Origin: a virus
Direction: 5' to 3' (one strand)
DNA: 64,000 nucleotides
IMG/VR virus record: IMGVR_UViG_3300049846_000430
Coordinates: 32,001-96,000 of that record
Shown here: positions 3,191 to 45,088 of the stretch, piece after piece
Numbering within the stretch: the stretch's first letter is position 1
How the letters are laid out: every line of letters begins with the position of its first letter
Translations under genes and position numbers: made by a program
The notes under the pieces: model-generated
The model's input: the letters and a program-made list of their open reading frames with translations, nothing else
Told to the model about the DNA's origin: nothing
The model's database searches: none

Positions 3191-3191
3191 C

Positions 3192-6100
3192 ATGAACTGG
3201 AAAGAATTTACAATGAAGTATGGTGGTGGACTCACTAAGTATCAAAAGAGAGGTGAGTTCAATTGGAAGACATATAAGGATGTAGGCATACAGACTTTAC
3301 CAAGTAAATCTCAAATAGTTGCTGCTCAAGGACAACAAAGGGATAATGTCTATGTTAATCCTGTTGTAAAAAATGCAGCTCAGTTGCAAAGGATAAATCA
3401 AATAGAGGAAGAAGAAAGACAAAGAAGAATTCAAGAAACTGCAGATAGAGTGCGAGGCACACTAAGAGCAACTACTGATGCAGATATAGAAGCTCAAAAT
3501 AGAGAAGACTATACACTTACAGGAAGAGCAAGAAGTCTTGGTAGAGGAGATTTTAACCCTTTAGTTGTAGCAGCCAGTGCTGCAGATTTGATTAATCCTG
3601 CTTCCTATTGGTATGCCGGTAAAGATTTTGGAAGAGGTGTAAAACAAACTGGAGAAGGGATAGTTAATCTAGATCCAGAACAAATAGGTTCTGGATTATT
3701 ACAAACAGGATTAAGTGCTTTACAATTGTATCCCGGAGCATCTACTGCCAGATCTGTTATAAAAGGAGCTGCTCCACGTCTATTTGGTTCTACAATGTCC
3801 AGTCAAGCTAATGATTTTTTAAGATCTGTAAGATCAATGGATGACTTTGCTACTGGCTCGCCATCTGTTTATAGAACTCAGCCAGGATTAAGTTCAGGAC
3901 CAATAAGTTCAACACCTGCTATATCAAGAGTTGGTAGTACTTCTGGACAAGCATTTATCCCATCTGCAAAACAAACCGGTAAGTATTCTCCTAGTATTGT
4001 TAGTGATTTAAGCTCGTTTTTTGCTCCATTTAATCCTAAAAATTTACAAACAAATTCCGGATTAGAATGGATGAAGCAGTGGTATTCAGATCCTGATATT
4101 ATAAGAAGAACTGAAGGTAATTTTCCAAAAGGATTTTCAAAATTTTCAATTATAATGGATTCCGATAATATTGGATCTAAAGCTCTAAAACATTTTAAAA
4201 ATAAATTAAATGCATATGAACCAAAAAATTATATTGATTTATTGAAAGATCGTGGGTTAAAAAAATATCTTCAAGCAAGTATGGGAAGTAAAGGACTTTC
4301 TGCTGGCTATCCTTCAGGTATATATGTCAATAGGACAGCTGCATTTCCTTTTGACAAGAGAGGATTAGAATCTACCAGAGTACATGAATTAACTCATTTA
4401 ATAGAGCATAATGGTGCTATTTTTAATGATGATAACATTAAGTCATTACTAAAACCTTTTGGATATTCTTCCTTATCTGAAGTTCCTGAAAATAAAACTT
4501 TGAGTTTTATAGATAGAGAAATAAGGGGTATTAATCCTGAATATTATTTAGAGCCTAGTGAAATACATGCTAGAATGAATCAAGGAAGATTTAATTTTAA
4601 TCTTACACCAAAAGATCAATTTACCACTAAAATGTTTGATGAAATATCTAAAAAATATGATTGGTATGGAATGGGAAGATATATAAAAGATAAAGATGCT
4701 TTTATAGATTTAATGAATAATTTTTGGGCAATACCTGCAACAGTTGGTATTGGTGCCGGAGCTTATCAACAGTTTAATCAAAAACCTCAAGGAACTTATC
4801 AGTATGGTGGTCCTACTATAGATTTAAAGCTTCCTCAGTTTGAAGAAGATAAACCCAGACCTTTCTTTGAAATGAGTGGTGCTGGCACTGGACCACAATA
4901 TGATATGTTTGGTTATGGTTATATTCCTCTTGGTAAGAACTTAGGTATATCTGCAGATCTAATGAGATGGAAAGAAGGAGATTGGCGTGGTGGTAGATAT
5001 GGTATAAGCGGAAACATAAACATTCCAATTAACAGAGGTGAGAGAAGAACACGTCCGGATATGAAAGATCCAGTAATGTATCAATATGGAGGAGCATCAA
5101 GAGCTGATACTTTAAATCTTTTAGCAAATACTAGAGCAGTTCGGAATTATTATACGGGAAGGGACTATACACCTGATGTAAATTATACTGGACGTAACTT
5201 GGTAAGCCCGTCAACATCAATGTATAAAAATATATGGGAGGCTTTAAAAGCAGATAGAAGTGGTTTTATAGCTACCAATGCTGCATATGGTATTGTAACA
5301 CCCTCAGGTCAAAGAAAATTAAGTATGAGTGATTACTATAGACCAATTGACCGTAATAAATTTTATCAAAGGGAAGATCAAAATCTTATTTTAGATACTA
5401 GAGCTCCAATGCAACTTTATGATAAGAGAATTGAACCTACTGGTGTATTGGGATATACTAATATAAAACCAAGTGATCCTATGTCATCAGATATAATTCA
5501 TTTTTATACTTATGATCCTATATCTATTACACCTTGGGATATGCTTAGTACAAAACAGAAAAAGCAAAGGATTAATAAGTATGGTGTTTCTGGCACTCCT
5601 TATGAAAGTAAGCAAGACTTTATAGAAAAGACATCTGATCAAGAAGTTATTAGAAAACAAAAACTTCTCAAAGAAGCTGGCTTATATAAAGGGGAAATTG
5701 ATGGTGACTGGGGAACCGGTTCTGAGAAAGCTTGGAAAAAGTATATGGAATTAAATACAATTCCAACAACTACAAATACTTCAAACACCATATCAGAGAC
5801 TCAAGTAATTCCCAGCACCCCAAGATTTAATATTCAAGGTATTATAGCAGATCAATATGTTCCAGATGCAAAAGATCAAACATCTAGAGAATATAGATAT
5901 AGGATAAATACTGATAAAGGTTTTGATGTAATTAAAAGCAAAAAAGATTTTGAAGAATGGAAACAAAGAAATGCAGCAGAGTATCAACCTTATTATCAAA
6001 GATCAACAAATGCTCCTATAGACTATAATAAAGGAAGAATACAAGAATATCTAGAAACACCCACCCTAATGTATACTGGAGATGGTACAAGAAGAAGTGG

Positions 6101-7244
6101 CGGTGAATCATCATATCAGTATGGAGGTGGTTTTTTACCTACAAGATATACTTCTAATCCTTATGATCCTGCAATAAAAAATTTCAATGATAGTTTAAAT
6201 TTATACAAAGGATATGTAATGCAGGATTATTTGATGGGTCCAAAAAATGAAAGAATATCTCCTGGAACTCGTATATCTTGGACACCAGCAGAATTAAAAA
6301 AGGATAGAACTAAAAAGTGGAATCCAGTTTTAAAACAAAAGATTGCTGATGATTTTCAAAATCAAGAAGAAATGTTTGCATCTGATTTTGTAAATGAAAA
6401 TAATAAAAAACTAGTAAGATACTATAAATCTCTTGGATTTACAGATGATAATATAATGTATCATACATCTGCAGATCTAGTTCATCCTACAATTAGAGCA
6501 ATAGGTACTTACATGGATGGTTCAGCATTAAGTCCTATTTATAAAAAACCAGTTCAACCTGTAAAATATGCTGATCCAAAAGTGGTAGAAAAACAAAAAA
6601 TACTTAAAGATGCGGGGCTTTACACAGGAGAATTAGATGGCGTGTGGGGGAGTGGTTCTAAAAAAGCGTGGGAAGAATATACAAAAAGAAATACTACTCC
6701 TAGATCATTAGATGGGATGACTGAAGTTACATATCCTACTTCTACTATGATAGAAACTACAAAGTTAGATCCTAACGGCAATCCTGTAACAGAAATACAT
6801 TATTATGATGATCTTAGAACCAGAGAAAGAAAAGATCCAAAAGTTCAGAAATATTTAGTACAGACATATAATCAAATGTCCACACCATATAAGAAGGCAG
6901 CTGTTGCAAAATATGGTGATCCTAGCAAAGTTCCTTTTCAGGGTGTAAACATATATGAATTAAATCCTAATCCTTATATGAAAGAAGAAGGAGGTGAAAC
7001 AAATCTGTTTAACTGGAACAATTTAGATCAATGGTTTAAGAATGGTGGTGAGTCAGACTTTGTAAATAACATTTACAGTGATTACATGGATGGTGTTTAT
7101 GATGGTACACCTTTGGAAGAGAATGCCAAGAAAGTGTATGATAAATTAAACACTATATACTATAGGCAAGCAAAGGAATCAGGTATGACTCCACCAAACT
7201 ACATTATGACCAATGTAATTAAAAAAGCTTTGAAACCTTCATAA
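3192..7244 (+). CDS. Modular probable virion cargo protein with a zincin HExxH domain and two peptidoglycan-binding-like domains
   Basis: 1350 aa. VHELTH at ~4380-4397 with downstream EIHAR. Two copies of QKxLKxAGLYxGExDGxWGxGSxKAW (5646-5744, 6582-6680). Modules are separated by YQYGG motifs. Confidence 0.7.
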   Translation: MNWKEFTMKYGGGLTKYQKRGEFNWKTYKDVGIQTLPSKSQIVAAQGQQRDNVYVNPVVKNAAQLQRINQIEEEERQRRIQETADRVRGTLRATTDADIEAQNREDYTLTGRARSLGRGDFNPLVVAASAADLINPASYWYAGKDFGRGVKQTGEGIVNLDPEQIGSGLLQTGLSALQLYPGASTARSVIKGAAPRLFGSTMSSQANDFLRSVRSMDDFATGSPSVYRTQPGLSSGPISSTPAISRVGSTSGQAFIPSAKQTGKYSPSIVSDLSSFFAPFNPKNLQTNSGLEWMKQWYSDPDIIRRTEGNFPKGFSKFSIIMDSDNIGSKALKHFKNKLNAYEPKNYIDLLKDRGLKKYLQASMGSKGLSAGYPSGIYVNRTAAFPFDKRGLESTRVHELTHLIEHNGAIFNDDNIKSLLKPFGYSSLSEVPENKTLSFIDREIRGINPEYYLEPSEIHARMNQGRFNFNLTPKDQFTTKMFDEISKKYDWYGMGRYIKDKDAFIDLMNNFWAIPATVGIGAGAYQQFNQKPQGTYQYGGPTIDLKLPQFEEDKPRPFFEMSGAGTGPQYDMFGYGYIPLGKNLGISADLMRWKEGDWRGGRYGISGNINIPINRGERRTRPDMKDPVMYQYGGASRADTLNLLANTRAVRNYYTGRDYTPDVNYTGRNLVSPSTSMYKNIWEALKADRSGFIATNAAYGIVTPSGQRKLSMSDYYRPIDRNKFYQREDQNLILDTRAPMQLYDKRIEPTGVLGYTNIKPSDPMSSDIIHFYTYDPISITPWDMLSTKQKKQRINKYGVSGTPYESKQDFIEKTSDQEVIRKQKLLKEAGLYKGEIDGDWGTGSEKAWKKYMELNTIPTTTNTSNTISETQVIPSTPRFNIQGIIADQYVPDAKDQTSREYRYRINTDKGFDVIKSKKDFEEWKQRNAAEYQPYYQRSTNAPIDYNKGRIQEYLETPTLMYTGDGTRRSGGESSYQYGGGFLPTRYTSNPYDPAIKNFNDSLNLYKGYVMQDYLMGPKNERISPGTRISWTPAELKKDRTKKWNPVLKQKIADDFQNQEEMFASDFVNENNKKLVRYYKSLGFTDDNIMYHTSADLVHPTIRAIGTYMDGSALSPIYKKPVQPVKYADPKVVEKQKILKDAGLYTGELDGVWGSGSKKAWEEYTKRNTTPRSLDGMTEVTYPTSTMIETTKLDPNGNPVTEIHYYDDLRTRERKDPKVQKYLVQTYNQMSTPYKKAAVAKYGDPSKVPFQGVNIYELNPNPYMKEEGGETNLFNWNNLDQWFKNGGESDFVNNIYSDYMDGVYDGTPLEENAKKVYDKLNTIYYRQAKESGMTPPNYIMTNVIKKALKPS

Positions 7245-7264
7245 TTAGCTTATTTGATGTTTAA

Positions 7265-7285
7265 TTTGTATATTAGTATTATACT
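7265..7285 (+). promoter_or_regulatory. Putative phage promoter/leader motif TTTGTATATTA
   Basis: Sits in a 41-bp intergenic gap. The same TTTGTATATTA...ATACTATG context recurs at 39312-39330. Confidence 0.4.
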
Positions 7286-10200
7286 ATGGCCAGCAAAAGA
7301 TTAAGTAAAAAATACTATCAGACAGGGGGTGACACATCTCCTGCACCTGATATTCATCCCGACATGATTGAGATTGTTCAGGCTGTTGAGGCTTCTCTTC
7401 AATCTGGACTTGCTCCTCAAGAAGTTGTATTGCATCTTGCTGGTCAGGGGTATAGAGAAGATGAAATAAGTTTTGCTTTTGAGCAAATGGGTTATGATCC
7501 TGCTGCCATTGCTACAATAATGCAAGCTGCAGAAGCAATGTATAACCAACAGTCTCAGCAGCAAATGCAACCAGGTATGGAACCCGGAATGGAACCTGGT
7601 ATGGAGCAACCTATGGAACCTGGAATGGAAGGTCCTATGCCTCCAGTAACGGAAGCTGAGATGCAAGCTCAAATGGCTCAGGCTGCTTCACCACAATCAA
7701 ATGTGGGTAGCATGGAAGATGAAGGTATTTCAAAAGAAGAACTTGCTACAGCTTTACAAAGAGCTGCTTCTAAAGCTTTAGCTAGAAGAGGTAGAGAAAT
7801 GCAATATGGTGGTTTGCTTCTTCCTGGTGAACATGCTTATGATCCTGTTGCTACTGTGAGTCAGGAAATGGGTAAGAGATTTTACTATCCATATGTTCCC
7901 GGTCCTGGAGATTTAGGAGGTGCATTGTCTACTGCTGTTGGTTCTATTGGAAATTTGTTTTCAGGACGTGTTGGTGCAGATGGTTTACAAGAAGGAACTT
8001 TCAGAGACCTTGGTGCAAAAAGTGCAAGGTTTCAAAGATCTAAACCAATGCAGTATACTTACAATGTTAAATTAGATCCTAATGACAAGAATCAGTATGC
8101 TGCAGATATGGAAGATATGTATGCTGCTTCTAGAGGAGAAGGCAAGTTGAGAACTAAAGAACAGTATCAACAAGATGTAAATAAGTATTCAAGAACTAAT
8201 TTTAATACAGATACTGGCAAGTATGATGTTCTTTATACTAGCAGAGAATTTGACCCAAGTCTTTTAGGAAATAAACAGGTTGATCCTTATGAAGGATTTA
8301 GAAAGAAGAGTATTTCATTTGCTGATTGGAAAAGAAGAATGGATCCTGAGACTCTCAGCCTTCTTAGAGAAAATGAAATAAATGCACCAAAAGGAACAAC
8401 TATAGGTATATCTCCACAAGGTTCACCAACATCATATATTTCTGGCAAAGAGAATCCATACTGGTATAATACTATGATGGGATTAAACACACTCAAATCA
8501 AATCAACATGGAAATATGAGGGTGTCAGGTTATATGAAAGCAGAGGGTGGTCCTTTTAATGAAACTGAATATACACCCATTGATCCAGAACCAAAACGTG
8601 TGTTAAGTGGAATTCCTTATAAGGAGGAAGATTATGAATTTGCAGATCCAATAAGAAGAAGAGAATTAAGAGCTTATAAAAAGTATCAAAGGCTTCCTGA
8701 AGATCAAAAGACTAATCCTTTTTATAGAACACATGATGTAAAGCGTTCCGGTCTTAAAAGATACTGGGAAGATATTCCTGATATTGATTATAATAAAGCT
8801 CTTCAAGGAACTACATTTGGTCAGTTTATTAGTAGAGCCAATTCTTTAAAAAGTAGGGGGGATCAGTTTGGTAATATATATGAAACAGGACCTCATCCTA
8901 TAGAAACTGGATATATGCCAAGAAACATTTGGACATCACCAACTACTGGTATTTCATTATATCCTGATGATGATCCAAACAATATACTTAAGCAAATGGA
9001 TGACGCATCAGCTGATAATTTTAAACCATATATTTATTTTTTACAACCAGATGATCAAACTGTTTTACCAGCAAATGTTGGATATCAAACTATTGTAGGA
9101 GGATCTGGAGCAATAAAAGGTCCTGAGAATTTAAAAAATCAAGATAAAAATCTTATTGATATAATGGGTTTTGGAAGTGAGGATATTCCAGCTGATAAAT
9201 ATCAAAAAACATTTGGTTATAATACTGATCTTATAAGAGTAACTACACCGCAAAGAAATAAAATTGCTGGAGTTACAGCAATTGATAAAGATGTTAATGA
9301 TTATCTTCATAAGATATATCAACAATATCAAAATGAAGATTTAAGCAAACTGTCAAAAGAAGAACGTGATGATGTAAAGTTAAAAAGAGAAGCTGAGGTT
9401 AAAAAATATCTTTTAGAGAAAGCGGGTCTTGATCCTGCACAGTATATGAGTACACTCATGCACTATAACTACACATCTCCTGAAATATATTCTGACATCA
9501 ACAGACCAGGCTTTACAGTTTTTGATCAGTATGGTGATGTGTATGATAAAAGAAAAAGAGACATGCCAGAGTTTATGAAAAGAATGAACACTAAAAAGTA
9601 TGGTGGTTATCTTCGTAAAGCTCAATTTGGTTATGAAAGTATGGGTGATAGAATGGATATGTTTGGAGTTGAAACTTCAGATCCAAAGATGTATTCTTCT
9701 GCAATAGCTTATGGTAAAGTAGATCCCCCAGATTTTTCAGGTTATGCACCAAGAGGCGTATACAGTTCTGCAATTCCTAATTCAGGTCTTTCACCTGTAG
9801 GTATGGTTAATATTCCAACAAGAAGAACGCCTGCCACTAGCTCAGTTCCTACAACTACTCCTTCTATTTCACCAGGTGTTGCTGTTTCTACTCCAAAACC
9901 AACGGATGAGATTAGCTCTGTAACAGCACCTACTGCAAGAGAAGCTTATGAGCCCATGAAGCCAAAAGAAAAAAGTGTAATAGTTCCGTCTGATGGTAAA
10001 ACATCTAAATCTTCAGCAGCCTCATTAAATCCTTTAGCTAAACCAGTTGATGTATCTAGATCAGTATCTGGCACAAGTGAGCTATATGACCCATTTGGTG
10101 TACCTACAGAGTTTGATAATCCTAAAATGACATCATCAGCTTTAGCTCTTGGTAAAACAACTGGTACTACAACAACTACACCAGCATCTCAACCAGAGGT

Positions 10201-10597
10201 AACAAAAAAGCTTAATCCTGAACAGTGGTTAAATAGACAACTCCAAAGACCGGGTATAAAAGCTTATGGTGATGTATCAAAAGCTGTTGTTGATACAGCT
10301 AACTTTGTAAACGAAGCATTTAAAGAAAGAGAACGTGCAGCATATGATAGCAGACTTAGAGAGATGACTGCAGCAGATAATGTATATGGTATTATCTTTG
10401 ATAATGAAAGAGGGGACTGGGATCCTAATTCAGGATTATTAAAAGTTGATAAATACGTACCTTATAGGATGCCTGACCAATTTAGACCTATAGCTGGAAG
10501 AGTTAAGTTTGGTGGTCAGAAAGATGATGTCTTTAATGTAGACATGAAAACACTTACACAATTAATTGCAGCTGGTGCTGATATTGAGATATTATAA
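7286..10597 (+). CDS. Large probable virion/cargo protein, modular, with low-complexity linkers
   Basis: 1103 aa. Q/P/M-rich N-terminus, S/T/P-rich region near the C-terminus, several xxxGG motifs; lies in the structural operon. Confidence 0.6.
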   Translation: MASKRLSKKYYQTGGDTSPAPDIHPDMIEIVQAVEASLQSGLAPQEVVLHLAGQGYREDEISFAFEQMGYDPAAIATIMQAAEAMYNQQSQQQMQPGMEPGMEPGMEQPMEPGMEGPMPPVTEAEMQAQMAQAASPQSNVGSMEDEGISKEELATALQRAASKALARRGREMQYGGLLLPGEHAYDPVATVSQEMGKRFYYPYVPGPGDLGGALSTAVGSIGNLFSGRVGADGLQEGTFRDLGAKSARFQRSKPMQYTYNVKLDPNDKNQYAADMEDMYAASRGEGKLRTKEQYQQDVNKYSRTNFNTDTGKYDVLYTSREFDPSLLGNKQVDPYEGFRKKSISFADWKRRMDPETLSLLRENEINAPKGTTIGISPQGSPTSYISGKENPYWYNTMMGLNTLKSNQHGNMRVSGYMKAEGGPFNETEYTPIDPEPKRVLSGIPYKEEDYEFADPIRRRELRAYKKYQRLPEDQKTNPFYRTHDVKRSGLKRYWEDIPDIDYNKALQGTTFGQFISRANSLKSRGDQFGNIYETGPHPIETGYMPRNIWTSPTTGISLYPDDDPNNILKQMDDASADNFKPYIYFLQPDDQTVLPANVGYQTIVGGSGAIKGPENLKNQDKNLIDIMGFGSEDIPADKYQKTFGYNTDLIRVTTPQRNKIAGVTAIDKDVNDYLHKIYQQYQNEDLSKLSKEERDDVKLKREAEVKKYLLEKAGLDPAQYMSTLMHYNYTSPEIYSDINRPGFTVFDQYGDVYDKRKRDMPEFMKRMNTKKYGGYLRKAQFGYESMGDRMDMFGVETSDPKMYSSAIAYGKVDPPDFSGYAPRGVYSSAIPNSGLSPVGMVNIPTRRTPATSSVPTTTPSISPGVAVSTPKPTDEISSVTAPTAREAYEPMKPKEKSVIVPSDGKTSKSSAASLNPLAKPVDVSRSVSGTSELYDPFGVPTEFDNPKMTSSALALGKTTGTTTTTPASQPEVTKKLNPEQWLNRQLQRPGIKAYGDVSKAVVDTANFVNEAFKERERAAYDSRLREMTAADNVYGIIFDNERGDWDPNSGLLKVDKYVPYRMPDQFRPIAGRVKFGGQKDDVFNVDMKTLTQLIAAGADIEIL
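7571..7639 (+). repeat. 12-bp coding tandem repeat (PGME units)
   Basis: ccaggtatggaa cccggaatggaa cctggtatggag caacctatggaa cctggaatggaa, translating to PGMEPGMEPGMEQPMEPGME. Confidence 0.85.
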
Positions 10598-10599
10598 CA

Positions 10600-13500
10600 A
10601 TGGCAAAAATCAGAGTAAAAAATCTGCCGGAAGGCTTTGAGATTAAAAATGGCAAGGTTGTCAAGAAGATGGCATTTGGTGGTCATACCACTGGTGATCA
10701 ATCTGAGTATGGTTTAGTTACTATACCATCATCCAGATATGATACATTCTTCAATAATGAAAAACAACCAGATGTAAGATATAGTATATCTGCTGTACCA
10801 AGAGATGTAGCTAACGTAGAAGCTGAAGGTGGTGAGACAGTTCTTGCTGATCTTAATAATGACGGAAGCTTTGGTCTTTATGATATAAAAGGAAAAAGAC
10901 ATAGCAATGGTGGAGTGCCTTTATACATGCCTCCTCAATCATTCTTTTATTCTGATACCCCAACAATGAAGTTTAAAAGAGATGAGCTTGCTGACTTTGG
11001 GATTAAATCAAAGAAAGGAATAACACCGGCTAAGATTTCAAAGATGCCGGGTTTTCAAATCAATGAATACTATGGTGCACTTAAAGATGAGTTTGTTGAT
11101 CCTATTATGAGGAATAGTGCAGAGCTTATGATTAATAAGAATCAAATGAATCTCTCTAAACTGGCATTTGCACAGGAAGCTAAAAAGAAATTTGAAGATG
11201 GTGTTCCTACAGCTTCCTATCCTTATCTTGCTTCCCAGGGTCAAGATCCTATTGAGTTTACACAAAGAATAGAAGAGATAAGCAGACAAGAGGCTGAGAT
11301 GAAAGCTTTAGCTTCTCTACCTCCAGATCAACTTCAACAGTTGATGATGCTTAGAGACTTTTTAGCCCAGGCTCAAGCTGAACAACAAGCAATGGCTCCA
11401 GTTAATATGGCACAAAATGGACCTATGGCTGTACCTGCTGCTCAGTATGGCGGTTCTCCATTTGAAGGAATGGAGATGGATATTCATGATCAATATACTA
11501 CAGAAGATGAGGCAATGCTAGGTAATGAAGATTTTGGTGCTATGCGGACTGGTGGTGAAGAGATGGAAGATGAAGAATATTCAAGGCAGAGTGGTGAAGG
11601 AGAACAGGTTGTTGTTGGAGAATATCAAACACAGAACTTTGATCTATGTCCCAGAGCTAGTGAGCTTTATGAAGAGATTGCAGAAGAAGGTGAGGATATT
11701 GCTATTGCACAAGAATCAGCAGCATTGCATGATCAATTGTTTGGCATAGAAAGAAATGCTATTGCTCAGGATTATGCTACAAAAGAAGATGTAGCTAATG
11801 CAAAAGAATTGGCAAGACAAATTATGGGCTTGGCTAAAGAGATGGGTTTGCTTAAAGCTCACAACTATATTAAAGACCATGTTAAAAAGATTGAAGAATT
11901 GGCTGGTAACATGGAAGAAAAAAGATATGGTGGTCAAAAAGATCTTCCCAAGTTTCAAGATAATGGTGAATGGAATTGGCAAGTAGATGCTCAAGGAAGT
12001 CCTATTGTAACAACTATTGATCCTGCTACAGGTTTTCCTATTGTTCCTCAAAATGGTACACCTGCTCAACCCCCAATTGTTCCTGATCCTTCTAAGACTA
12101 CAGTTGTAACTCAAAACGCAGTTGTTGGAACAAATAACCCAAGTCCTGATCAAGCATATGATGGTACACCAGCTTTAAAGGATTATTATGATTTGGAAAG
12201 ACTGCTTAAATCAAAAGATCCTAAATGGGTAGCCACAACAGATAGAGCTTATGAATTAGTTAAAGTTGCTGCAAAAAAATATAACTTTCCTCTTCCTTCT
12301 AAGGAGGAGATGATTGATAAATTTTTGAAGTATCAGAAAAACAACTATACTATTAAAGCAATTGCAACACCTGCTGAAAGACAGTTAAAAGGTTATGATA
12401 ATGAAGCTGCTGCTCTTGGCTATGGTGATTATGATAAGACTAATCAAAATACTCAGAGATTCATGGATGATTTGCAAAAAAGAAATAAAGCATATCCTGG
12501 GTATAAAATTGATCCAACTGAAACAAAACAAATTCAAGCTTTCTTTCAAGCTCTTTATTTAGCTGATAGAAATAATGCTGAACCATATCTTGATGTTTTT
12601 TATGAAGGTCCTAATCAAAATACCAACTGGGCTCAGAATCAGGAAATTTCTGATATTGATGCTTATTATGGAAACAATACAATCAACCAATTTGGAAAAG
12701 TAAGAGAACCAATAAAACCACCTCCTCCTAATAAAAAAGAAGGTTGTCCTTGTATAGATCCTTCTGGTAAATATACAGGAACTTATTCTAAGGACTGTTG
12801 TCCTACCCCTGGTGAGTTCAAAAGAAAATACACACCACCCCAATATCAATTCTGGGCTCAGGATGTTATTAAGGCAAATGCTATTGCTCAGCGTGATAGA
12901 AGAATGTTCATGCCTTGGCAACCTGCAGTAGGTATACCTCAAGTTGATTATATACTTGAAGATCCTACTAGAGAGATTGCTGCTAATCTTGAAGCTTACA
13001 ATATAGGCGTTCAAGGTGCAGGTGCATTTGGTGGACCACAAGCTCTTGCTGCTAGAACAGCACAAGGTACCGGTAAAGCTTTTGCTGCAAATGCAAATAC
13101 ACTTGCTAATGTAAATAGCAGAAACGTAGCAACAGTAAATGCTGGTAAAGCTCTTAATGCTCAGTTCCAGGAAAGAGGAATGAGAGAAGAAAGAGACAGA
13201 CGTGTTAAGGAGTATGATGATACACAGAAAGTTCTTCAAGAGTTTCTGAATGAAAGAAACTATGACAGAGAGAAGTTTGCTGATGCATATGCTAACATGC
13301 TCACCAATGCTGCTTACACATATGACCTTAACACTCTGAATCCTTACTATAACATTATGCCTGCTACCGGTGGTATTATTCAAATGACTAACACCAAAGG
13401 ACCATTCAAGCCCACACAACAAGGTGCTTCAACTCCTATGTATGAGCAACTTGAAAAGAAAGCTGTTGAACTTAATAACAAAGGTGTTCCTGAAAAGGTA

Positions 13501-13677
13501 ATAACTCAGATTCTAAAAAGTATGGCTGGTGAATCAATAACTACAGATGAAGAAGATGCAGTTATGGAAGCAATGAGAAAAAGTCTTAATTTTCCATTTA
13601 CTCCTACTAAAGCAAGAGGTGGAGAGAAGATGAAAAAATATGCAATACCTTTTTATACAGGCAAGATAGGATATTAA
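10600..13677 (+). CDS. Large probable virion/cargo protein (crAss-like)
   Basis: 1025 aa. N-terminal NVEAEGGE...GKRHSNGGVP motif of the kind seen in crAss-like structural proteins (from memory); A/G/N-rich helical C-terminal part; five xxxGG motifs. Confidence 0.6.
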   Translation: MAKIRVKNLPEGFEIKNGKVVKKMAFGGHTTGDQSEYGLVTIPSSRYDTFFNNEKQPDVRYSISAVPRDVANVEAEGGETVLADLNNDGSFGLYDIKGKRHSNGGVPLYMPPQSFFYSDTPTMKFKRDELADFGIKSKKGITPAKISKMPGFQINEYYGALKDEFVDPIMRNSAELMINKNQMNLSKLAFAQEAKKKFEDGVPTASYPYLASQGQDPIEFTQRIEEISRQEAEMKALASLPPDQLQQLMMLRDFLAQAQAEQQAMAPVNMAQNGPMAVPAAQYGGSPFEGMEMDIHDQYTTEDEAMLGNEDFGAMRTGGEEMEDEEYSRQSGEGEQVVVGEYQTQNFDLCPRASELYEEIAEEGEDIAIAQESAALHDQLFGIERNAIAQDYATKEDVANAKELARQIMGLAKEMGLLKAHNYIKDHVKKIEELAGNMEEKRYGGQKDLPKFQDNGEWNWQVDAQGSPIVTTIDPATGFPIVPQNGTPAQPPIVPDPSKTTVVTQNAVVGTNNPSPDQAYDGTPALKDYYDLERLLKSKDPKWVATTDRAYELVKVAAKKYNFPLPSKEEMIDKFLKYQKNNYTIKAIATPAERQLKGYDNEAAALGYGDYDKTNQNTQRFMDDLQKRNKAYPGYKIDPTETKQIQAFFQALYLADRNNAEPYLDVFYEGPNQNTNWAQNQEISDIDAYYGNNTINQFGKVREPIKPPPPNKKEGCPCIDPSGKYTGTYSKDCCPTPGEFKRKYTPPQYQFWAQDVIKANAIAQRDRRMFMPWQPAVGIPQVDYILEDPTREIAANLEAYNIGVQGAGAFGGPQALAARTAQGTGKAFAANANTLANVNSRNVATVNAGKALNAQFQERGMREERDRRVKEYDDTQKVLQEFLNERNYDREKFADAYANMLTNAAYTYDLNTLNPYYNIMPATGGIIQMTNTKGPFKPTQQGASTPMYEQLEKKAVELNNKGVPEKVITQILKSMAGESITTDEEDAVMEAMRKSLNFPFTPTKARGGEKMKKYAIPFYTGKIGY

Positions 13678-39311: not shown

Positions 39312-39327
39312 TTTGTATATTAATACT
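39312..39327 (+). promoter_or_regulatory. Putative promoter/leader motif TTTGTATATTA before the basic-protein cluster
   Basis: Identical 11-mer to 7265-7275, followed by ATACTATG. Confidence 0.4.
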
Positions 39328-39639
39328 ATGACCATACTAAAAAAAATAATCAACTGGCTTCTTGGTAAAACCAACATTGATGAAAAAGTCCTTGAAGCAA
39401 AAGAAACAGTAACTGGAAAAGTTGCTGATGCAAAAGTGTACATCAAGAATGTAGAGAAAGAAGTTGTTGATGTAGTAGATGCTGTAGCAGGTAAGAAACA
39501 AAAGCCGGAGGTAGTTCCTGCCAAACCTGTTGTTGAAGAAACAAAAGCATTTGAAACACCTATTGCTAAACCAAAACCCAAGAAGAAGTATTACAAAAAA
39601 AAGAATGCTTCTAAGACCACCAAGACTACTAAAAAATAA
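39328..39639 (+). CDS. Small protein with Lys-rich C-terminus
   Basis: ATG at 39328 (MTILKKIINWLLG..., amphipathic N-terminus); tail KPKPKKKYYKKK. Confidence 0.7.
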   Translation: MTILKKIINWLLGKTNIDEKVLEAKETVTGKVADAKVYIKNVEKEVVDVVDAVAGKKQKPEVVPAKPVVEETKAFETPIAKPKPKKKYYKKKNASKTTKTTKK

Positions 39640-39644
39640 AAATA

Positions 39645-39842
39645 ATGGCTGAGAAAAAATGGATTCAGAAGGCTATTAAGAAGCCTGGTTCATTGACAGC
39701 TACCGCAAAAAAAGCTGGTGCTGTTACTAAAAGTGGCACAATCAAAAAAGATTGGCTTGAGTCAAAGGCTAAAGAAGGTGGTAAGACTGGTCAAAGAGCC
39801 AGACTTGCTATCACTCTTGGTAAAATGAGTAAGAAAAAGTAA
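39645..39842 (+). CDS. Small basic protein (WIQKAIKKPG type)
   Basis: 65 aa, very Lys-rich; TAATG-coupled to the next ORF. Confidence 0.75.
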   Translation: MAEKKWIQKAIKKPGSLTATAKKAGAVTKSGTIKKDWLESKAKEGGKTGQRARLAITLGKMSKKK

Positions 39843-39985
39843 TGGCAAAGGCAAAAGCATCTAAAGAAGTCACTAAGTGGAAACCTAAAGCAAAGGTTAA
39901 GAGACCTGGTGTTGTTTCTAAAAAGAAAAATAGTAGTCTCAAGACTAGTAAGAATTATGTAAAACCTTATAGAGGACAAGGATAA
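39842..39985 (+). CDS. Small basic protein, 47 aa (absent from the ORF track), ending in YRGQG
   Basis: MAKAKASKEVTKWKPKAKVKRPGVVSKKKNSSLKTSKNYVKPYRGQG*; TAATG overlaps at both ends. Confidence 0.75.
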   Translation: MAKAKASKEVTKWKPKAKVKRPGVVSKKKNSSLKTSKNYVKPYRGQG

Positions 39986-40428
39986 TGAAAAAGCCTGTAA
40001 AAAAACTCACCAAAAAACAAGGTGGTGGACCACAGGATAACACAAGAGAATACTATCCTGCTGGATCAATGCCTATAAGTACGGCTGATAATATTTCTAG
40101 AAGAGACAGATTTAGAAATCAGGTTAGTGCTGGTGCATATGATTTTATAAGCCAAACACCAGGACGTGAAGGAACCAGGAATGAAAGAAATACTGCCATA
40201 GATATTGTTAATGCTGGCCGTAAAGAAAGTGGTATGGGACGTGCTGGAAGAATAAAAACAGCTGCAAATTATCTTGAGCTTGATAAACCAGCAGTTAGAA
40301 CCATGCTTAAAACTGCTCCTGCTAAATCAAGAATACCTTCAAATCAAAGTCCTTTTTGGGGAGGAAAATGCCCAATGCCAGAACAGAAAAAAGGCGGAGA
40401 AACTAAAACTTCAAAAAAGAAAAAATAA
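39985..40428 (+). CDS. Basic protein with a GG-motif-bounded core
   Basis: 147 aa: KKLTKKQGGG-[core]-QKKGGETKTSKKKK. Confidence 0.75.
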   Translation: MKKPVKKLTKKQGGGPQDNTREYYPAGSMPISTADNISRRDRFRNQVSAGAYDFISQTPGREGTRNERNTAIDIVNAGRKESGMGRAGRIKTAANYLELDKPAVRTMLKTAPAKSRIPSNQSPFWGGKCPMPEQKKGGETKTSKKKK

Positions 40429-40429
40429 T

Positions 40430-41059
40430 ATGAAAAGTCTTAAGAAAAAAACACTTGTAAAGAAGGCAAGTGGTGGTCCAATGGGTGAAAAAAAACCTGC
40501 TCTTAACAAAGTAACTCCTGCTCAAAGTAAAGTTACAGGAGCAAAAGTTGGTGAGTCTTATAGAACAGCACCAATTAAAGGTGATGCTATTAATGCTCCA
40601 ATCCGTCAGAAATTATCTGATTATGCTACACGTGGTCCTGAACCTAAAGAGTATACCAAATATCAAGAGCTTACAAGAGCTGCATCTAAACCCGCTATGA
40701 AAAGAGGTGGTTCTATACCTAAGAAACAAGATGGTGGTTCTATTGGTAAAACTACAGAATCTCAAGTATTTAGACCAAATATGCAACCTCCAGGTGGATT
40801 TAAACCCACACCTGTTCCTAGAAAAGTAAGAAAACAGATGGAAAGATATGAAGATGCTGTGTCTAAAGAAAGAATAAACCCCAGCCCTCTATTAAAAGAA
40901 CCTTCTCCAAAAATAAAACCCAGCCCTCTTAAAGAAGACAAAAAACTTTATCAGGATTTAAAAGTTACACCCATGAAGAAAGGTGGTTCAATGTCTAAAA
41001 TGACAATGATGAAAAAGGGTGGTGCTATGAAAGTTTCAACTATCAAAAAAAAGAAATAA
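40430..41059 (+). CDS. Basic protein with multiple MKxGG/KQDGG motifs
   Basis: The likely start is ATG 40430 (MKSLKKK), just after the upstream stop. Motifs: KASGG, MKRGG, KQDGG, MKKGG x2. Confidence 0.75.
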   Translation: MKSLKKKTLVKKASGGPMGEKKPALNKVTPAQSKVTGAKVGESYRTAPIKGDAINAPIRQKLSDYATRGPEPKEYTKYQELTRAASKPAMKRGGSIPKKQDGGSIGKTTESQVFRPNMQPPGGFKPTPVPRKVRKQMERYEDAVSKERINPSPLLKEPSPKIKPSPLKEDKKLYQDLKVTPMKKGGSMSKMTMMKKGGAMKVSTIKKKK

Positions 41060-41060
41060 T

Positions 41061-41678
41061 ATGAAAAAGTACAAAAAAGGAAGTGAACTGAAACCAGTTC
41101 CTTCAGACAGACCCGGACTTGGTAAACTTCCAAGCAAAGTACGTAATGCCATGGGTTACATGAAATCTGGTGGCTCCATGATTAAGAAACAGGATGGTGG
41201 CCCTATACCATCAAAAATAGATGTTACTAAAAAAGATATAAGGCGGATGGAGAGAGCAATTAACAGACAAAATCCTGATATGTACAATAAAACAAGTAAA
41301 CCTACAGGTATGATTTATGATTCTAATGAGAAGCCGACTTTCCCAAAGATTGAGGAATTAAGAAAAACTACTCCAAAAGATTCAACAGTAAAGACAACAC
41401 CTATTTATAATAAAAAAAGAGGTGGTTCTATAGGAAATGCAATGTCAGCTGTAAAGAAAGGCTTTGATCAAGCAGGAGCAATGATAACCTCTAAGAAAGC
41501 ATATGGTGGTTCTATGGTTAATAAACCCGCAAATAAAATGCTTATCAAAGCAATGCAAGCTGGTGGACCCATGGATATGGTTGATGTAGTTGCCATGAAA
41601 AAAGGTGGTTGCATGAAGTGTGGCGGATCCATGAAGAAGATGGGTGGAGCTGTCATCAACACAAAAATGAAGAAGTAA
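41061..41678 (+). CDS. Basic Met/Lys-rich protein with eight xxxGG motifs
   Basis: 205 aa: MKSGG, KQDGG, KKRGG, KAYGG, MQAGG, MKKGG, MKCGG, KKMGG. Confidence 0.75.
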   Translation: MKKYKKGSELKPVPSDRPGLGKLPSKVRNAMGYMKSGGSMIKKQDGGPIPSKIDVTKKDIRRMERAINRQNPDMYNKTSKPTGMIYDSNEKPTFPKIEELRKTTPKDSTVKTTPIYNKKRGGSIGNAMSAVKKGFDQAGAMITSKKAYGGSMVNKPANKMLIKAMQAGGPMDMVDVVAMKKGGCMKCGGSMKKMGGAVINTKMKK

Positions 41679-41684
41679 GTAACT

Positions 41685-41720
41685 AGCAGGTAGGTATAAA
41701 AGCCTACCTGCTTTTTATTT
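41685..41720 (+). terminator. Rho-independent terminator
   Basis: Stem AGCAGGTAGG / CCTACCTGCT followed by TTTTATTT. Confidence 0.8.
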
Positions 41721-41753
41721 ATAAAAGTTATGAGGACTTATCAATAAAAAATC

Positions 41754-41939
41754 ATGGCAACTAAATCAAAAGTAAACCAAGCGGGTGTTTATACTAAACC
41801 CGGAATGAGAAAGACTTTGTTCAATAAGATCAAAGCAGGTAGTAAAGGTGGTGACCCAGGTGAGTGGTCAGCCCGCAAGGCACAAATGCTTGCAAGAGAA
41901 TACAAAGCCAAAGGTGGTGGCTATAAAACTAAAAAATGA
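41754..41939 (+). CDS. Small basic protein (resembles the N-terminal half of the DUF5872 family)
   Basis: YTKPGMR...IKAGSKGGDPGEWSARKAQMLAREYKAKGGGY. Confidence 0.65.
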   Translation: MATKSKVNQAGVYTKPGMRKTLFNKIKAGSKGGDPGEWSARKAQMLAREYKAKGGGYKTKK

Positions 41940-41940
41940 T

Positions 41941-42240
41941 ATGGCAATCAAGAAAAAAATTACTAAAAAACCTTTAGTTAAAGCACAAAAAGGAAAAGAA
42001 ATAAAACCTGATTATAGTAATATAAAAGGTAAAGGTTGGGATTATTTTAAAACTCCTACAGCAAAAGATAGTGCAGATTATAGACAAGGTTTCTATAAAA
42101 AAGTTAAAGGTGAACAGCTTAAACAATTTCCAAGTCCATCAGGAGCTGAAATAAGAGGATACAATGAAGCAACAAAAAGAAAGTTAAAGACTGGCGGAGC
42201 TATTAAAACTAAAGCTCTTGTTTACAAAACTAAAAAGTAA
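41941..42240 (+). CDS. Basic protein with a motif-bounded core
   Basis: Likely start ATG 41941: MAIKKKITKKPLVKAQKG-[core]-LKTGG-[basic tail]. Confidence 0.7.
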   Translation: MAIKKKITKKPLVKAQKGKEIKPDYSNIKGKGWDYFKTPTAKDSADYRQGFYKKVKGEQLKQFPSPSGAEIRGYNEATKRKLKTGGAIKTKALVYKTKK

Positions 42241-42383
42241 TGGCAAAGAATAAAAAACAACAAGCTGCAATTGCTGTCTCTATGAAAGAGAAAGGCAAAG
42301 TTCCTAAGGGTTATCACAGAATGCCTGATGGAAAGATCATGAAAGATTCTGCACACAAAACCCCAGCCAAGAAAAAGAAATAA
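42240..42383 (+). CDS. Small basic protein, 47 aa (absent from the ORF track)
   Basis: MAKNKKQQAAIAVSMKEKGKVPKGYHRMPDGKIMKDSAHKTPAKKKK*; TAATG coupling at both ends. Confidence 0.7.
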   Translation: MAKNKKQQAAIAVSMKEKGKVPKGYHRMPDGKIMKDSAHKTPAKKKK

Positions 42384-42652
42384 TGGTTAAGAAAGATCCA
42401 CAACAAAGTCTTAGAGACTGGACAGCACAGAAGTGGATGACCTCTGGTACCCATGCTAATAAGAAAAAGGGTAGCAGTAAAGAGGTAAAGTCAGAAGGTA
42501 AGAAGAGATACTTACCTGAAGCTGCATGGGGGGCTCTCTCTAAAGGAGAAAAAGCTGCAACCAATAAAGCAAAGGCTTCTGGCAATGCTAAAGGTAAGCA
42601 GTTTGTGAAGCAACCTAAGACAATTGCTAAGAAAGCAAGTAAATACAGATAA
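42383..42652 (+). CDS. Small basic protein (resembles the C-terminal half of the DUF5872 family)
   Basis: QQSLRDWTAQKW...RYLPEAAWGALS...KQFVKQP. Confidence 0.65.
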   Translation: MVKKDPQQSLRDWTAQKWMTSGTHANKKKGSSKEVKSEGKKRYLPEAAWGALSKGEKAATNKAKASGNAKGKQFVKQPKTIAKKASKYR

Positions 42653-42670
42653 AATCTATAAATTTGTACT

Positions 42671-42904
42671 ATGGCAAAACTAAAAATAAATAAAGAAATG
42701 GCTAAGCAGGAACGCCAGTGGCAAGTTGAGGATGCAATGAGAACCCTCAAACGTGCTGAAGAAATCCGCCAAGATGGTAAATTAATGGGTGAAGTTAAGA
42801 AGTCTATGGAGAGTCTTAACAAGATGCTTATGGGTGGTGCTATGAAACCAGCAGCTCCTAAAGTAATGAAACCTGTTGCAAAGAAAATCATGAAGAAGAA
42901 GTAA
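42671..42904 (+). CDS. Small basic helical protein
   Basis: 77 aa: WQVEDAMRTLKRAEEI, Lys-rich tail. Confidence 0.7.
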   Translation: MAKLKINKEMAKQERQWQVEDAMRTLKRAEEIRQDGKLMGEVKKSMESLNKMLMGGAMKPAAPKVMKPVAKKIMKKK

Positions 42905-42905
42905 G

Positions 42906-44234
42906 ATGTCACTAGATCCAAAAAGAAGATTTTACCTGGATGGTTATGGTCAACATCCGGAATGGTACACTTGGCATTATCAAATGCTAGGTAGACTTAT
43001 TGATATTAATAACAGTATCACAGGTCAATCAGGACCATCTTCAACTGCCCAGGATTCTTTTGGAAGGCTTAGAGTTTCTGAGCCTTTCACTCTTTTTGAT
43101 TCTAGTCACAGATATTCTGATAATGGTTTATGGGCTACAGCTACTGCTACTGGCGGTACTGCTGTATTTAACGCTAACCAAGGACTGGTAGATTTAAATG
43201 TAACAGCAGCTTCTGGTTCTTCTGTTAAAAGAGAAACATATAAAGTATTCTCTTACCAGCCTGGCAAGTCTTTACTTGTCATGTCCACTTTTGTTATGAG
43301 TCCTGCAAAAACAGGTCTTACTCAAAAAGTTGGTTATTATGGAGACAGTAATGGCTTTTATCTGCAACAAGAAAATAGCACAATATCTTTTGTTAAAAGA
43401 AGTTTTGTTACAGGTTCAATTGTTGAGACTCCCATTGAACAAGCTAACTGGAACTATGATAAGTTAAATGGTACTGGTCCATCCCGAATTACTCTTGACT
43501 TAACCAAAGCTCAAATCTTATGGATGGATATGGAATGGTTAGGTGTAGGTTCTGTAAGAATGGGATTTGTAATTAATGGACAATTTATTGTTTGTCACAT
43601 CTTTGAACATGCCAATCTAATTACCTCCACTTATATCACCAGTGCGTCTCTTCCATTACGTTATGAGATTGAGAACACCGCTGGTACATCTGGAGCTAGC
43701 ACATTAAAACAGATTTGTTCTACCATACTTTCAGAAGGTGGATATGAACTAAGAGGAGAAGCACATACTGCAGCAACAGCTATTGGAACTCCTTACAACA
43801 TGACAGTTGCTTCAACTTATTATCCAATAGTATCTATAAGATTGAAATCAACTAATTTAGATGGTATAGTTATACCTACAGCAATGTCATGTCTTCCAAT
43901 TAGTACAGGAACTTACGAATGGAGATTAGTTGAAAAGGGAACAACAAGTGGAGGTACTTGGGTATCTGCAGGTATAGATTCAGTAGTTGAATATAACATA
44001 ACTGGTACATCATTTACCGGAGGTAATATAGTGCACACAGGATTTTTTAATGCTTCTAACCAAGGAACAACAACGTCTGGATTAGATAAATCAGGTCTAT
44101 TTGACCATCAATTGCAAAGAGATTCTTTTACATCCACTCGTTATGAGTTTACACTTGTTGTAGCTGCCAACACTATAGGTGGAGGCGGCAGTAATGTTTT
44201 GGGTCATATAGATTGGGATGAAATAAGCCGATGA
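42906..44234 (+). CDS. Beta-rich virion structural protein (possible tail or capsid accessory, ConA-like)
   Basis: 442 aa, S/T/G-rich; DSFGRLRVS...YQPGKS motif common in phage structural proteins (from memory). Confidence 0.55.
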   Translation: MSLDPKRRFYLDGYGQHPEWYTWHYQMLGRLIDINNSITGQSGPSSTAQDSFGRLRVSEPFTLFDSSHRYSDNGLWATATATGGTAVFNANQGLVDLNVTAASGSSVKRETYKVFSYQPGKSLLVMSTFVMSPAKTGLTQKVGYYGDSNGFYLQQENSTISFVKRSFVTGSIVETPIEQANWNYDKLNGTGPSRITLDLTKAQILWMDMEWLGVGSVRMGFVINGQFIVCHIFEHANLITSTYITSASLPLRYEIENTAGTSGASTLKQICSTILSEGGYELRGEAHTAATAIGTPYNMTVASTYYPIVSIRLKSTNLDGIVIPTAMSCLPISTGTYEWRLVEKGTTSGGTWVSAGIDSVVEYNITGTSFTGGNIVHTGFFNASNQGTTTSGLDKSGLFDHQLQRDSFTSTRYEFTLVVAANTIGGGGSNVLGHIDWDEISR

Positions 44235-44686: not shown

Positions 44687-45088
44687 ATGAAAACTCTAAC
44701 TGAACAAGAGCAAACCAATCTTAATATTATTGCCCAGTCATCCACACCTTATCTTCCTTTTACATTAGTATCTGCAGCAACTGATAATTCAACAGTTGTA
44801 AAAGGAACAATGGGGACTATTGGAAATATAACAGCAATAAATGTTAGTGGTACTATACACTACTTAAAATTTTATAATAAAGATACTGCTCCTAATCCAG
44901 CTTTAGATACTCCAATTGCTGTATATCCAATACCGGCTAGCACAAGCGGTGCAGGATTAACAGTAAACTTTCCTTCAGGACTTAGATTTTCCAAAGGAAT
45001 AAGTTTTGTTATTGTAAAAGGTATAGCCTCAAATAATAACACACCAGCAAATTCTAATGCGGTTGTTGTAACAATAGCTTATAAGTAA
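44687..45088 (+). CDS. Small beta-sandwich structural protein
   Basis: 133 aa, T/N/A/V-rich; HYLKFYNK...YPIPA...GLRFSKGI. Confidence 0.55.
   Translation: MKTLTEQEQTNLNIIAQSSTPYLPFTLVSAATDNSTVVKGTMGTIGNITAINVSGTIHYLKFYNKDTAPNPALDTPIAVYPIPASTSGAGLTVNFPSGLRFSKGISFVIVKGIASNNNTPANSNAVVVTIAYK

What the first reader, a model, noticed from the sequence alone, without database searches (positions are those of the whole stretch)
39985..42240. The same GG motif saturates a separate cluster of small basic proteins 26 kb away
Seen in the sequence: about 17 further copies (KQGGG, QKKGG, KASGG, MKRGG, KQDGG x2, MKKGG x3, MKSGG, KKRGG, KAYGG, MQAGG, MKCGG, KKMGG, LKTGG, AKGGG). These include the doubled form MKRGGSIPKKQDGG / MKSGGSMIKKQDGG, which parallels the cargo-gene motif. 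ORFs 39985 and 41941 have a clean cassette layout: basic leader + motif, unique core, motif + basic tail. Inference: cleavage would release many short cationic peptides, analogous to the processed adenovirus core proteins pVII/pX. This would tie the locus to the same processing or loading pathway as 608-13677.
Basis: partly seen in the sequence, partly recalled or inferred. Interest (0 to 1): 0.8.

Follow-up and report, generated by a model that had tools for sequence, protein, structure and literature searches.

The report
Gly-Gly-jointed lysine-rich phage mini-proteins
A marine crAss-like phage carries eleven back-to-back late genes for small, very lysine-rich, mostly unfolded proteins built from portable mini-modules joined by a recurring Met/Tyr-Lys-x-Gly-Gly motif that in this genome occurs otherwise only in its injected cargo proteins; they are probably DNA-associated proteins carried in the head, but cutting at the motif is unproven and no protease was found.

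Summary
All 17 listed GG copies are present, plus three more, and the cluster is larger than stated: 11 co-oriented ORFs at 39328-42904, 22-34% K+R. GG is 2.6 times commoner than in composition-preserving shuffles. Two ORFs drive this (40430 and 41061).

The sharper motif [MYF][KQ]xGG occurs 7 times in the cluster and 8 times in the four cargo proteins. It occurs nowhere in the other 104 ORFs. The excess recurs in the basic clusters of four related phages.

The proteins are real genes (dN/dS 0.04-0.25) but mostly disordered. They are assembled from short portable modules that also occur in marine podoviruses (HMO-2011 type, pelagiphages). One is an undescribed ~30-residue "LKPVP" mini-domain fenced by GG on both sides, found in 1106 clusters at 50% identity.

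The cleavage reading is neither supported nor excluded:
- GG does sit at module borders.
- No protease was found: C5, C48, C39, S77, S78, JAB and MPTase are all absent.
- The motif is conserved on both sides of GG.
- Pro follows GG in 4 of 22 sites here.
- Many relatives end 4-6 residues after GG.

I read these as head-internal polycations with a hinge or sticker motif. Earlier scan notes describe GG-fenced basic proteins only in giant viruses, not in phages.

The parts
39328..39639 (+). 103-aa Lys-rich ORF (25% K, net +13). A TTG at 39313 is an alternative start. No GG.
39645..39842 (+). 65-aa basic ORF. phrog_20603 (E 2.8e-11). Sub-threshold match to the Fusellovirus VP2 family (24.5 bits, cut-off 27). 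Orthologues in L094 and L135, dN/dS 0.04-0.16.
39842..39985 (+). 47-aa basic ORF (34% K+R). Orthologues in nine related loci.
39985..40428 (+). 147-aa ORF: basic leader + GGG, 112-residue non-Lys-rich core, GG + basic tail. Near-orphan, with only one close homologue.
40430..41059 (+). 209-aa ORF with 6 GG sites (1.4 expected), including the doubled motif and two MKKGG copies before a KKKK end.
41061..41678 (+). 205-aa ORF with 8 GG sites (2.5 expected). An N-terminal LKPVP mini-domain (about residues 8-38) is the only high-confidence part besides one helix. Relatives of 121 aa lack residues ~41-125, an insertion bounded by GGSM and GGSI.
41685..41712 (+). Terminator-like hairpin (11-bp stem, 6 GC, T run) that splits the array into two units.
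41754..41939 (+). 61-aa ORF, phrog_17747 (E 1.8e-35), the 'WSARKAQ' module. In other phages it is fused directly after the LKPVP module's closing GG. Ends GGG + 5 residues.
41941..42240 (+). 99-aa basic ORF. Single GG motif 13 residues before the C-terminus.
42240..42383 (+). 47-aa basic ORF. Its N-terminal module is shared with a 116-aa protein of L064.
42383..42652 (+). 89-aa basic ORF, phrog_14910 (E 5.6e-26). AF2 predicts a small helical fold (pLDDT 83, pTM 0.68) with no PDB match.
42671..42904 (+). 77-aa basic, Met-rich ORF. One GG motif 21 residues before the KKK end.
608..13677 (+). Four cargo-type ORFs (860, 1350, 1103 and 1025 aa). They are the only other carriers of [MYF][KQ]xGG in this genome (8 copies, 0.45 expected). 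GG sites lie near their N- and C-termini.

Best explanation
The array encodes late-expressed, intrinsically disordered polycations: net +201 over 1149 residues for one copy of each.

They are strings of short portable modules:
- the LKPVP mini-domain;
- the WSARKAQ module;
- the 89-aa helical module;
- a VP2-like module.

The modules are joined and capped by a short linear motif, roughly G-[KY]-[MYF]-[KQ]-x-G-G-[SAPC]-[VMIL]-K-K.

I infer that the proteins are loaded into the head with the DNA and the cargo proteins, neutralise and bind DNA there, and leave with it. In this reading the GG motif is a flexible joint and a repeated sticker, for DNA or for co-assembly with the cargo proteins that share it. 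It is not necessarily a cut site.

Shown: the genes are real, the motif is non-random, and the architecture is modular and mostly disordered.

Inferred: virion location, DNA binding, and the role of the motif.
For: - Real genes under purifying selection: dN/dS 0.04-0.25 against orthologues in L094 and L135.
- Tightly packed on the late strand, between the virion-RNA-polymerase-type giant ORFs and a virion structural protein.
- In related crAss-like phages L064 and L076 (MCP of L064 79% identical to ours) an equivalent basic cluster sits inside the head module, between homologues of this genome's ORFs at 13992 and 15020 in genome coordinates.
- The motif is exclusive to the cluster and the cargo proteins here. 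It is enriched in the basic proteins, but not their neighbours, in four relatives.
- Motif logo from 685 sites in 149 diverse relatives: positions +2 (V/L/I/M) and +3 (K) are as constrained as -3 (M/Y). 51 of 149 proteins end 4-6 residues after GG. This fits a two-sided binding or structural unit.
- Tandem arrays with a period of roughly 10-12 residues occur in relatives L113 and L133.
- Disorder: AF2 pLDDT 61.8 and pTM 0.24, with only the LKPVP mini-domain and one helix confident. The Atlas model has pLDDT 0.48.
- An N-terminal module of related family members matches C-terminal parts of tape-measure and virion proteins.
- Weak VP2-like hit for the 65-aa ORF.
Against: - No proteomic or structural evidence places any of these proteins in a virion.
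- There is no cultured close relative: the best MCP match among isolates is 27.6% identical.
- No module matches a known DNA-binding fold: best PDB Z 3.4, Foldseek E above 8.
- In HMO-2011-type phages the homologous small genes lie near lysis and terminase genes, not inside a head module.
- Border features fit cleavage as well as they fit a hinge. These are GG sites at module borders and 'leader-GG-core-GG-tail' layouts.
Confidence: 0.4

Rival explanations
1. First reader's model. The GG motif is the recognition site of a phage-encoded or packaged protease. Cleavage inside the head trims basic leaders and tails, and releases many short cationic peptides and module-sized proteins. This would resemble adenovirus pVII/pX/pVI or the T4 internal proteins, and the same enzyme would process the cargo proteins.
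For: - GG lies at module borders. The 84-residue insertion in the 205-aa ORF is bounded by GGSM and GGSI.
- The stand-alone 61-aa ORF starts where the fused forms continue directly after GG.
- The conserved C-terminal ~60-residue module of the 1350-aa cargo protein is immediately preceded by GG in all six phages compared, although the upstream sequence is unrelated.
- Cargo proteins and several small ORFs have GG sites near both ends.
- The motif is absent from non-cargo proteins.
- HExxH motifs exist in two cargo-region ORFs.
Against: - No C5, C48, C39, S77, S78, Prok-JAB or MPTase-PolyVal match at E up to 1 in six frames.
- No Pfam support for the HExxH segments as peptidases.
- No recognisable protease among the commonest neighbour families of 80 family loci. 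HMO-2011 has a P22-type coat and no annotated protease.
- Pro follows GG in 4 of 22 sites here and is not depleted across the family (0.8x).
- Strong conservation at +2 and +3.
- Many proteins would lose only a 4-6-residue tail.
- Tandem sites would yield 6-9-residue peptides.
- The crAss001 structure paper reports no processing.
Confidence: 0.25
2. The proteins are not packaged. They would act in the infected cell late in infection. Possible roles: condensing or coating replicated phage DNA before packaging, binding RNA, or acting as cationic helpers of envelope disruption at lysis.
For: - In HMO-2011 and CRP-9 the homologous small basic genes lie beside the lysozyme, spanin-like and terminase genes.
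- An endolysin lies 5 kb downstream here.
- There is no direct evidence of packaging.
Against: - The motif is shared specifically with the cargo proteins.
- In L064 and L076 the cluster sits between head genes.
- Eleven different proteins is a lot for a lysis accessory.
- No transmembrane or amphipathic lytic-peptide features were seen.
Confidence: 0.2
3. Artefact: low-complexity K/G/M composition or spurious ORFs produce GG by chance.
For: Individually, 9 of the 11 ORFs do not exceed shuffles for plain GG.
Against: - Pooled GG and every contextual pattern exceed all shuffles.
- The excess is replicated in four other phages and in 78 and 149 relatives.
- dN/dS is well below 1.
- Codons vary between copies.
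Confidence: 0.02

Closest known systems
Phage T4 internal proteins IPI, IPII, IPIII (variable ip locus) with a capsid-targeting sequence removed by prohead protease gp21
   Same: Both are clusters of small, basic, fast-evolving late proteins that share little except a short conserved motif. Both are co-packaged with DNA and injected, which for the present array is only inferred. In both, the motif is shared with larger injected enzymes such as Alt. This comparison rests on my own knowledge of T4.
   Different: The T4 motif is a single N-terminal leader ending L/I-x-E, cut by gp21. Here the motif is x-x-GG and occurs many times per protein, often at the C-terminus. No S77 protease is present.
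Adenovirus core and capsid precursors pVII, pX (Mu) and pVI, cut by adenain at (M/L/I)XGG-X or (M/L/I)XGX-G
   Same: Basic DNA-associated proteins with GG preceded by Met or another hydrophobic residue. The idea of short cationic products also matches.
   Different: The hydrophobic residue is at -3 from the first Gly (two residues between it and GG), not -2. No Peptidase_C5 or C48 is present. The host is a bacterium and the virus has an HK97-type capsid.
Polyvalent proteins of phages and conjugative elements (Iyer et al. 2017, PMC5512222)
   Same: Freely shuffled modules in proteins delivered with the DNA. Neighbouring giant ORFs give a weak ART-PolyVal match (sub-threshold, 22.6 bits against a cut-off of 31.2) and an ADP-ribosyltransferase exoenzyme match just above its cut-off (24.5 against 23.4).
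   Different: The modules here are 25-90 residues with no enzyme domains. Many are stand-alone ORFs. The MPTase proposed to process polyvalent proteins was not found.
Cargo protein gp45 of Bacteroides phage crAss001 (PMC10172136)
   Same: Same virus order and same genome position class. gp45 has excess GG (20 vs 11.8) and aromatic-GG sites. It ends in a KGG + poly-Lys tail.
   Different: gp45 is one 842-aa protein with a transmembrane segment. It has no strict [MYF][KQ]xGG copies. No array of small basic proteins and no processing is reported for crAss001.
Fusellovirus SSV1 VP2 family (PF25632), a small basic virion DNA-binding protein
   Same: The 65-aa ORF matches the first 46 model positions, E 3.7e-5.
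   Different: The score of 24.5 is below the curated cut-off of 27. Only one of the 11 ORFs matches, and SSV1 is an archaeal virus.

Membership tests
Adenain-type (Peptidase C5) maturation substrates | Site consensus (M/L/I)-X-G-G|X, with the hydrophobic residue at P4 | tested here: not met
   The enriched hydrophobic residue (M/Y/F) is at -3 from the first Gly, which is P5. Position -2 is K/Q/A.
Adenain-type (Peptidase C5) maturation substrates | A C5 or related C48/C57-type cysteine protease encoded by the virus | tested here: not met
   PF00770 and PF02902: no match at E up to 1 in six frames of the 97%-complete genome. C57 was not scanned.
T4-type internal proteins | Prohead protease of the gp21 (S77) or HK97 (S78) type | tested here: not met
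   PF03420 and PF04586: no match.
T4-type internal proteins | Small basic proteins in a variable late-gene cluster that share a short conserved motif | tested here: met
   11 ORFs with 22-34% K+R. Content and position of the cluster vary between relatives, but the motif is retained.
T4-type internal proteins | Presence in the mature head and injection with the DNA | not testable with these tools
   No cultured close relative and no proteome.
Polyvalent proteins (Iyer 2017) | MPTase-PolyVal or another embedded processing peptidase | tested here: not met
   PF18818: no match. The HExxH segments have no peptidase Pfam hit.
Fusello_VP2_Capsid (PF25632) | Score at or above the gathering cut-off of 27 bits | tested here: not met
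   24.5 bits, E 3.7e-5, for ORF 39645-39842 only. A lead, not membership.
Ubiquitin-like precursors / double-glycine leader peptides | Cognate JAB, Ulp or C39 peptidase | tested here: not met
   PF14464, PF02902 and PF03412: no match.
PHROG families 17747, 14910, 20603 (unknown function) | Significant profile match | tested here: met
   E 1.8e-35, 5.6e-26 and 2.8e-11. All three are unannotated.

The most novel reading that the evidence does not exclude
A portable Gly-Gly 'joint code' marks the proteins that this crAss-like phage loads into its head: both the giant cargo enzymes and an array of small polycations. An as-yet unrecognised protease cuts at it, perhaps one of the HExxH segments inside the cargo proteins. 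That would give a tailed phage an adenovirus- or ASFV-like core maturation that releases many short DNA-condensing peptides. The same code, together with the undescribed LKPVP mini-domain, would then operate in abundant ocean podoviruses (HMO-2011 type, pelagiphages).
Probability: 0.2. Interest if true: 0.8.

Novelty: new variant of a known kind. Interest (0 to 1): 0.55.

Why it matters
Nothing is known about how crAss-like phages select and load the megadaltons of cargo protein seen in their heads, or about what neutralises DNA there.

A motif found only in cargo proteins and in an array of small polycations is a concrete, testable handle on that question.

The modules are not confined to this phage. 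The LKPVP mini-domain has at least 1106 clusters at 50% identity and at least 445 viral contigs, and no Pfam model. It occurs with the other modules in cultured phages of SAR11, SAR116, Roseobacter and Methylophilales, where every copy seen is annotated 'hypothetical'.

Those cultured phages make the packaging and cleavage questions directly answerable by virion mass spectrometry.

Tried and rejected
Searches that found nothing useful:
- Pfam at E up to 5 on ten of the 11 ORFs: only the sub-threshold VP2 hit.
- PDB sequence searches with the family profile and three ORFs: nothing.
- The 89-aa model against PDB: Foldseek E above 8; VIA-wide best Z 3.4 (arterivirus nucleocapsid), which is within noise. 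BFVD returned only unnamed homologues.
- Literature search for the module signatures: zero papers.
- The phiRIO-1 proteomics paper, checked for HMO-2011-type processing: no processing and no protease reported.
- The HMO-2011 paper was not held.

Ideas tested and dropped:
- Adenain-like register: rejected, because the hydrophobic residue is one position off.
- A DNA-level repeat as the cause of the motif: rejected, because codons vary.
- Testing whether T4-like phages carry the same modules with gp21-type joints: the modules were found only in podoviruses.

Limits and weaker results:
- No close relatives of the 1350-aa cargo protein by peptide patterns.
- In whole relatives G001 and G003 the strict motif is rare in cargo ORFs, which weakens the generality of the cargo tie.
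Full report
**Setting.**
- The window is bases 32001-96000 of a 113.4-kb, 97%-complete IMG/VR virus record.
- Upstream lie a terminase, a portal and a major head protein that match PHROG head families, and a 2050-aa virion protein.
- The window then has four large 'cargo-type' ORFs (608-13677), a 1067-aa ORF, a 5222-aa ORF and a 2224-aa ORF.
- These carry a weak ART-PolyVal hit and an ADP-ribosyltransferase exoenzyme hit.
- The order matches crAss-like phages. The nearest isolates are remote: the best MCP match is 27.6% identical, followed by gut crAss-like and Cellulophaga phages.

**The array.**
- Between the 2224-aa ORF and a 442-aa virion structural protein lie eleven co-oriented ORFs of 47-209 aa (39328-42904). 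Most have abutting or overlapping stop and start codons.
- The 442-aa protein is phrog_1645 and is 60% identical to HMO-2011 gp65.
- The eleven ORFs are 22-34% K+R, with net charge +201 over 1149 residues. Most end in a Lys run.
- A terminator-like hairpin at 41685-41712 splits the array.
- Orthologues in relatives L094 and L135 give dN/dS 0.04-0.25 with saturated dS, so these are real genes.

**Observation check.**
- Composition-preserving shuffles give 8.3 GG where 22 are seen (maximum 18 of 5000). The excess is carried by ORFs 40430 (6 vs 1.4) and 41061 (8 vs 2.5).
- Contextual patterns are more extreme: [MYF][KQ]xGG 7 vs 0.18, and GGx[VMILA] 15 vs 2.4.
- Gly codons differ between copies.
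- The doubled motif is a 16-residue stretch, 75% identical between the two ORFs.

**Link to the cargo genes.**
- In this genome [MYF][KQ]xGG occurs 8 times in the four cargo ORFs (0.45 expected).
- It occurs zero times in the three giant ORFs downstream and in the other 101 ORFs. That is 30.5 thousand residues, with about 1.4 expected.
- Cargo ORFs carry a GG site near their N-terminus (within about the first 30 residues in three, at residue 102 in the 860-aa ORF) and within the last 20-85 residues.
- Only the last ~65 residues of the 1350-aa ORF are conserved in five relatives. In all six phages that module is immediately preceded by GG, and in four of the six the context is [YF]-K-x-GG.
- The tie is less general than it looks. 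In complete relatives G001 and G003 the strict motif is absent or rare in cargo ORFs.

**A much larger family.**
- The 205-aa ORF has 121-aa relatives that lack residues ~41-125. This insertion is bounded by GGSM and GGSI.
- Its N-terminal ~30 residues form a conserved mini-domain fenced by GG on both sides. I call it LKPVP after its start.
- The mini-domain is found in at least 445 viral contigs and in 1106 clusters at 50% identity. It has no Pfam or PHROG model and no literature trace.
- In relatives it is fused in varying order to other modules:
  - the WSARKAQ module, which here is the stand-alone 61-aa ORF (phrog_17747);
  - DUF5872;
  - a CxxC module;
  - an N-terminal module that matches C-terminal parts of tape-measure and virion proteins.
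- The stand-alone 61-aa ORF begins where fused forms continue right after GG.
- The same modules occur in cultured HMO-2011, CRP and MEP phages and in pelagiphages. All copies seen are 'hypothetical'.

**The motif itself.**
- GG is about twice as frequent as expected in 78 family proteins (406 vs 204).
- From 685 sites in 149 diverse representatives, the logo is G-[KYF]-[MY]-[KQA]-K-GG-[SAT]-[VLIM]-K-[KP].
- Pro at +1 is not depleted (0.8x). 51 of 149 proteins end 4-6 residues after the last GG.
- The motif excess recurs in the basic proteins, but not the neighbours, of L064, L076, L094 and L135.
- In L064 and L076 the basic cluster sits inside the head module rather than after the polymerase genes. 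MCP identity between L064 and this phage is 79%.

**Structure.**
- AF2 with a 127-sequence alignment gives pLDDT 61.8 and pTM 0.24 for the 205-aa ORF. Only the LKPVP mini-domain (pLDDT 87-89) and one helix are confident.
- The Atlas model has pLDDT 0.48.
- The 89-aa ORF folds into a small helical domain (pLDDT 83, pTM 0.68) with no PDB match.
- The picture is beads on a string, with GG in the string.

**Protease search.**
- Six-frame scans found no Peptidase_C48, C5, C39, S78, S77, MPTase-PolyVal or Prok-JAB.
- Pfam on the large ORFs found no peptidase.
- HExxH occurs in the 1350-aa and 5222-aa ORFs, without family support. It also occurs in a DUF2201 metallopeptidase-VWA gene on the early strand.
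- No recognisable protease was among the commonest neighbour families of 80 family loci.
- HMO-2011 has a P22-type coat and no annotated protease.
- The crAss001 atlas paper does not mention processing.

**Verdict.**
- The motif is real, specific and conserved, and it marks module joints.
- Whether it is cut is open. Border positions favour cutting. The two-sided conservation, tolerated Pro, near-terminal copies, tandem arrays and the missing protease argue against it.
- I favour head-internal, DNA-associated polycations with a hinge or sticker motif (0.40) over protease-processed precursors (0.25) and a non-virion late role (0.20).
- Earlier scan notes describe GG-fenced basic proteins in giant viruses and protease-jointed bead strings in other phages. 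These served as leads only.

Noticed in passing
window 41082-41174 (residues ~8-38 of ORF 41061-41678): An undescribed ~30-residue mini-domain, GG-fenced and with nearly invariant G, L, K, P, V, R, N, M positions. Found in at least 445 viral contigs and 1106 clusters at 50% identity. No Pfam or PHROG model. AF2 predicts a closed mini-fold with the two ends adjacent.
   Followed up: partly
window 7032-7223 (residues ~1281-1344 of the 1350-aa cargo ORF); L144-L148: This C-terminal ~65-residue module is the only part conserved in five related phages (42-56% identity). It is always preceded directly by GG. It is a candidate anchoring or packaging domain of cargo proteins.
   Followed up: partly
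L149:21988-24516 (crAss001 gp45): The cargo protein gp45 has excess GG (20 vs 11.8). It has aromatic-GG sites at residues 209, 427 and 562, which bracket the two segments resolved by cryo-EM (214-245 and 425-552). It ends in KGG + poly-Lys.
   Followed up: partly
window 41685-41712: A strong terminator-like hairpin (11-bp stem, T run) right after the 205-aa ORF splits the basic-protein array into two units.
   Followed up: no
window 42906-44234: A 442-aa virion structural protein (phrog_1645) is 55-60% identical to proteins of the SAR116 phage HMO-2011 and of T4-like cyanophages (S-RIM, S-WAM). This gene is shared across very different phage types.
   Followed up: no
L064:5399-9185 and L076:3523-8117: In related crAss-like phages the equivalent cluster of basic mini-proteins lies inside the head module rather than after the polymerase genes. 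The array behaves as a movable cassette.
   Followed up: partly
window 4383-4397, 23605-23619, 60169-61329 (-): Three HExxH sites: in the 1350-aa cargo ORF, in the 5222-aa ORF, and in a DUF2201 metallopeptidase-VWA gene next to a MoxR-type ATPase. Only the last has family support.
   Followed up: partly
window 45088-45951: A 287-aa virion-structural-type protein (phrog_10356) with an arabinofuranosidase-B-like catalytic segment (PF09206, 38.5 bits). Possibly a glycan-degrading tail protein.
   Followed up: no
L003:3566-4048 (CRP-9 gp66): In CRP-9 the 89-aa module is fused to a four-Cys zinc-ribbon-like segment and a variant of the LKPVP module. The window's 205-aa ORF keeps only one CxxC.
   Followed up: no
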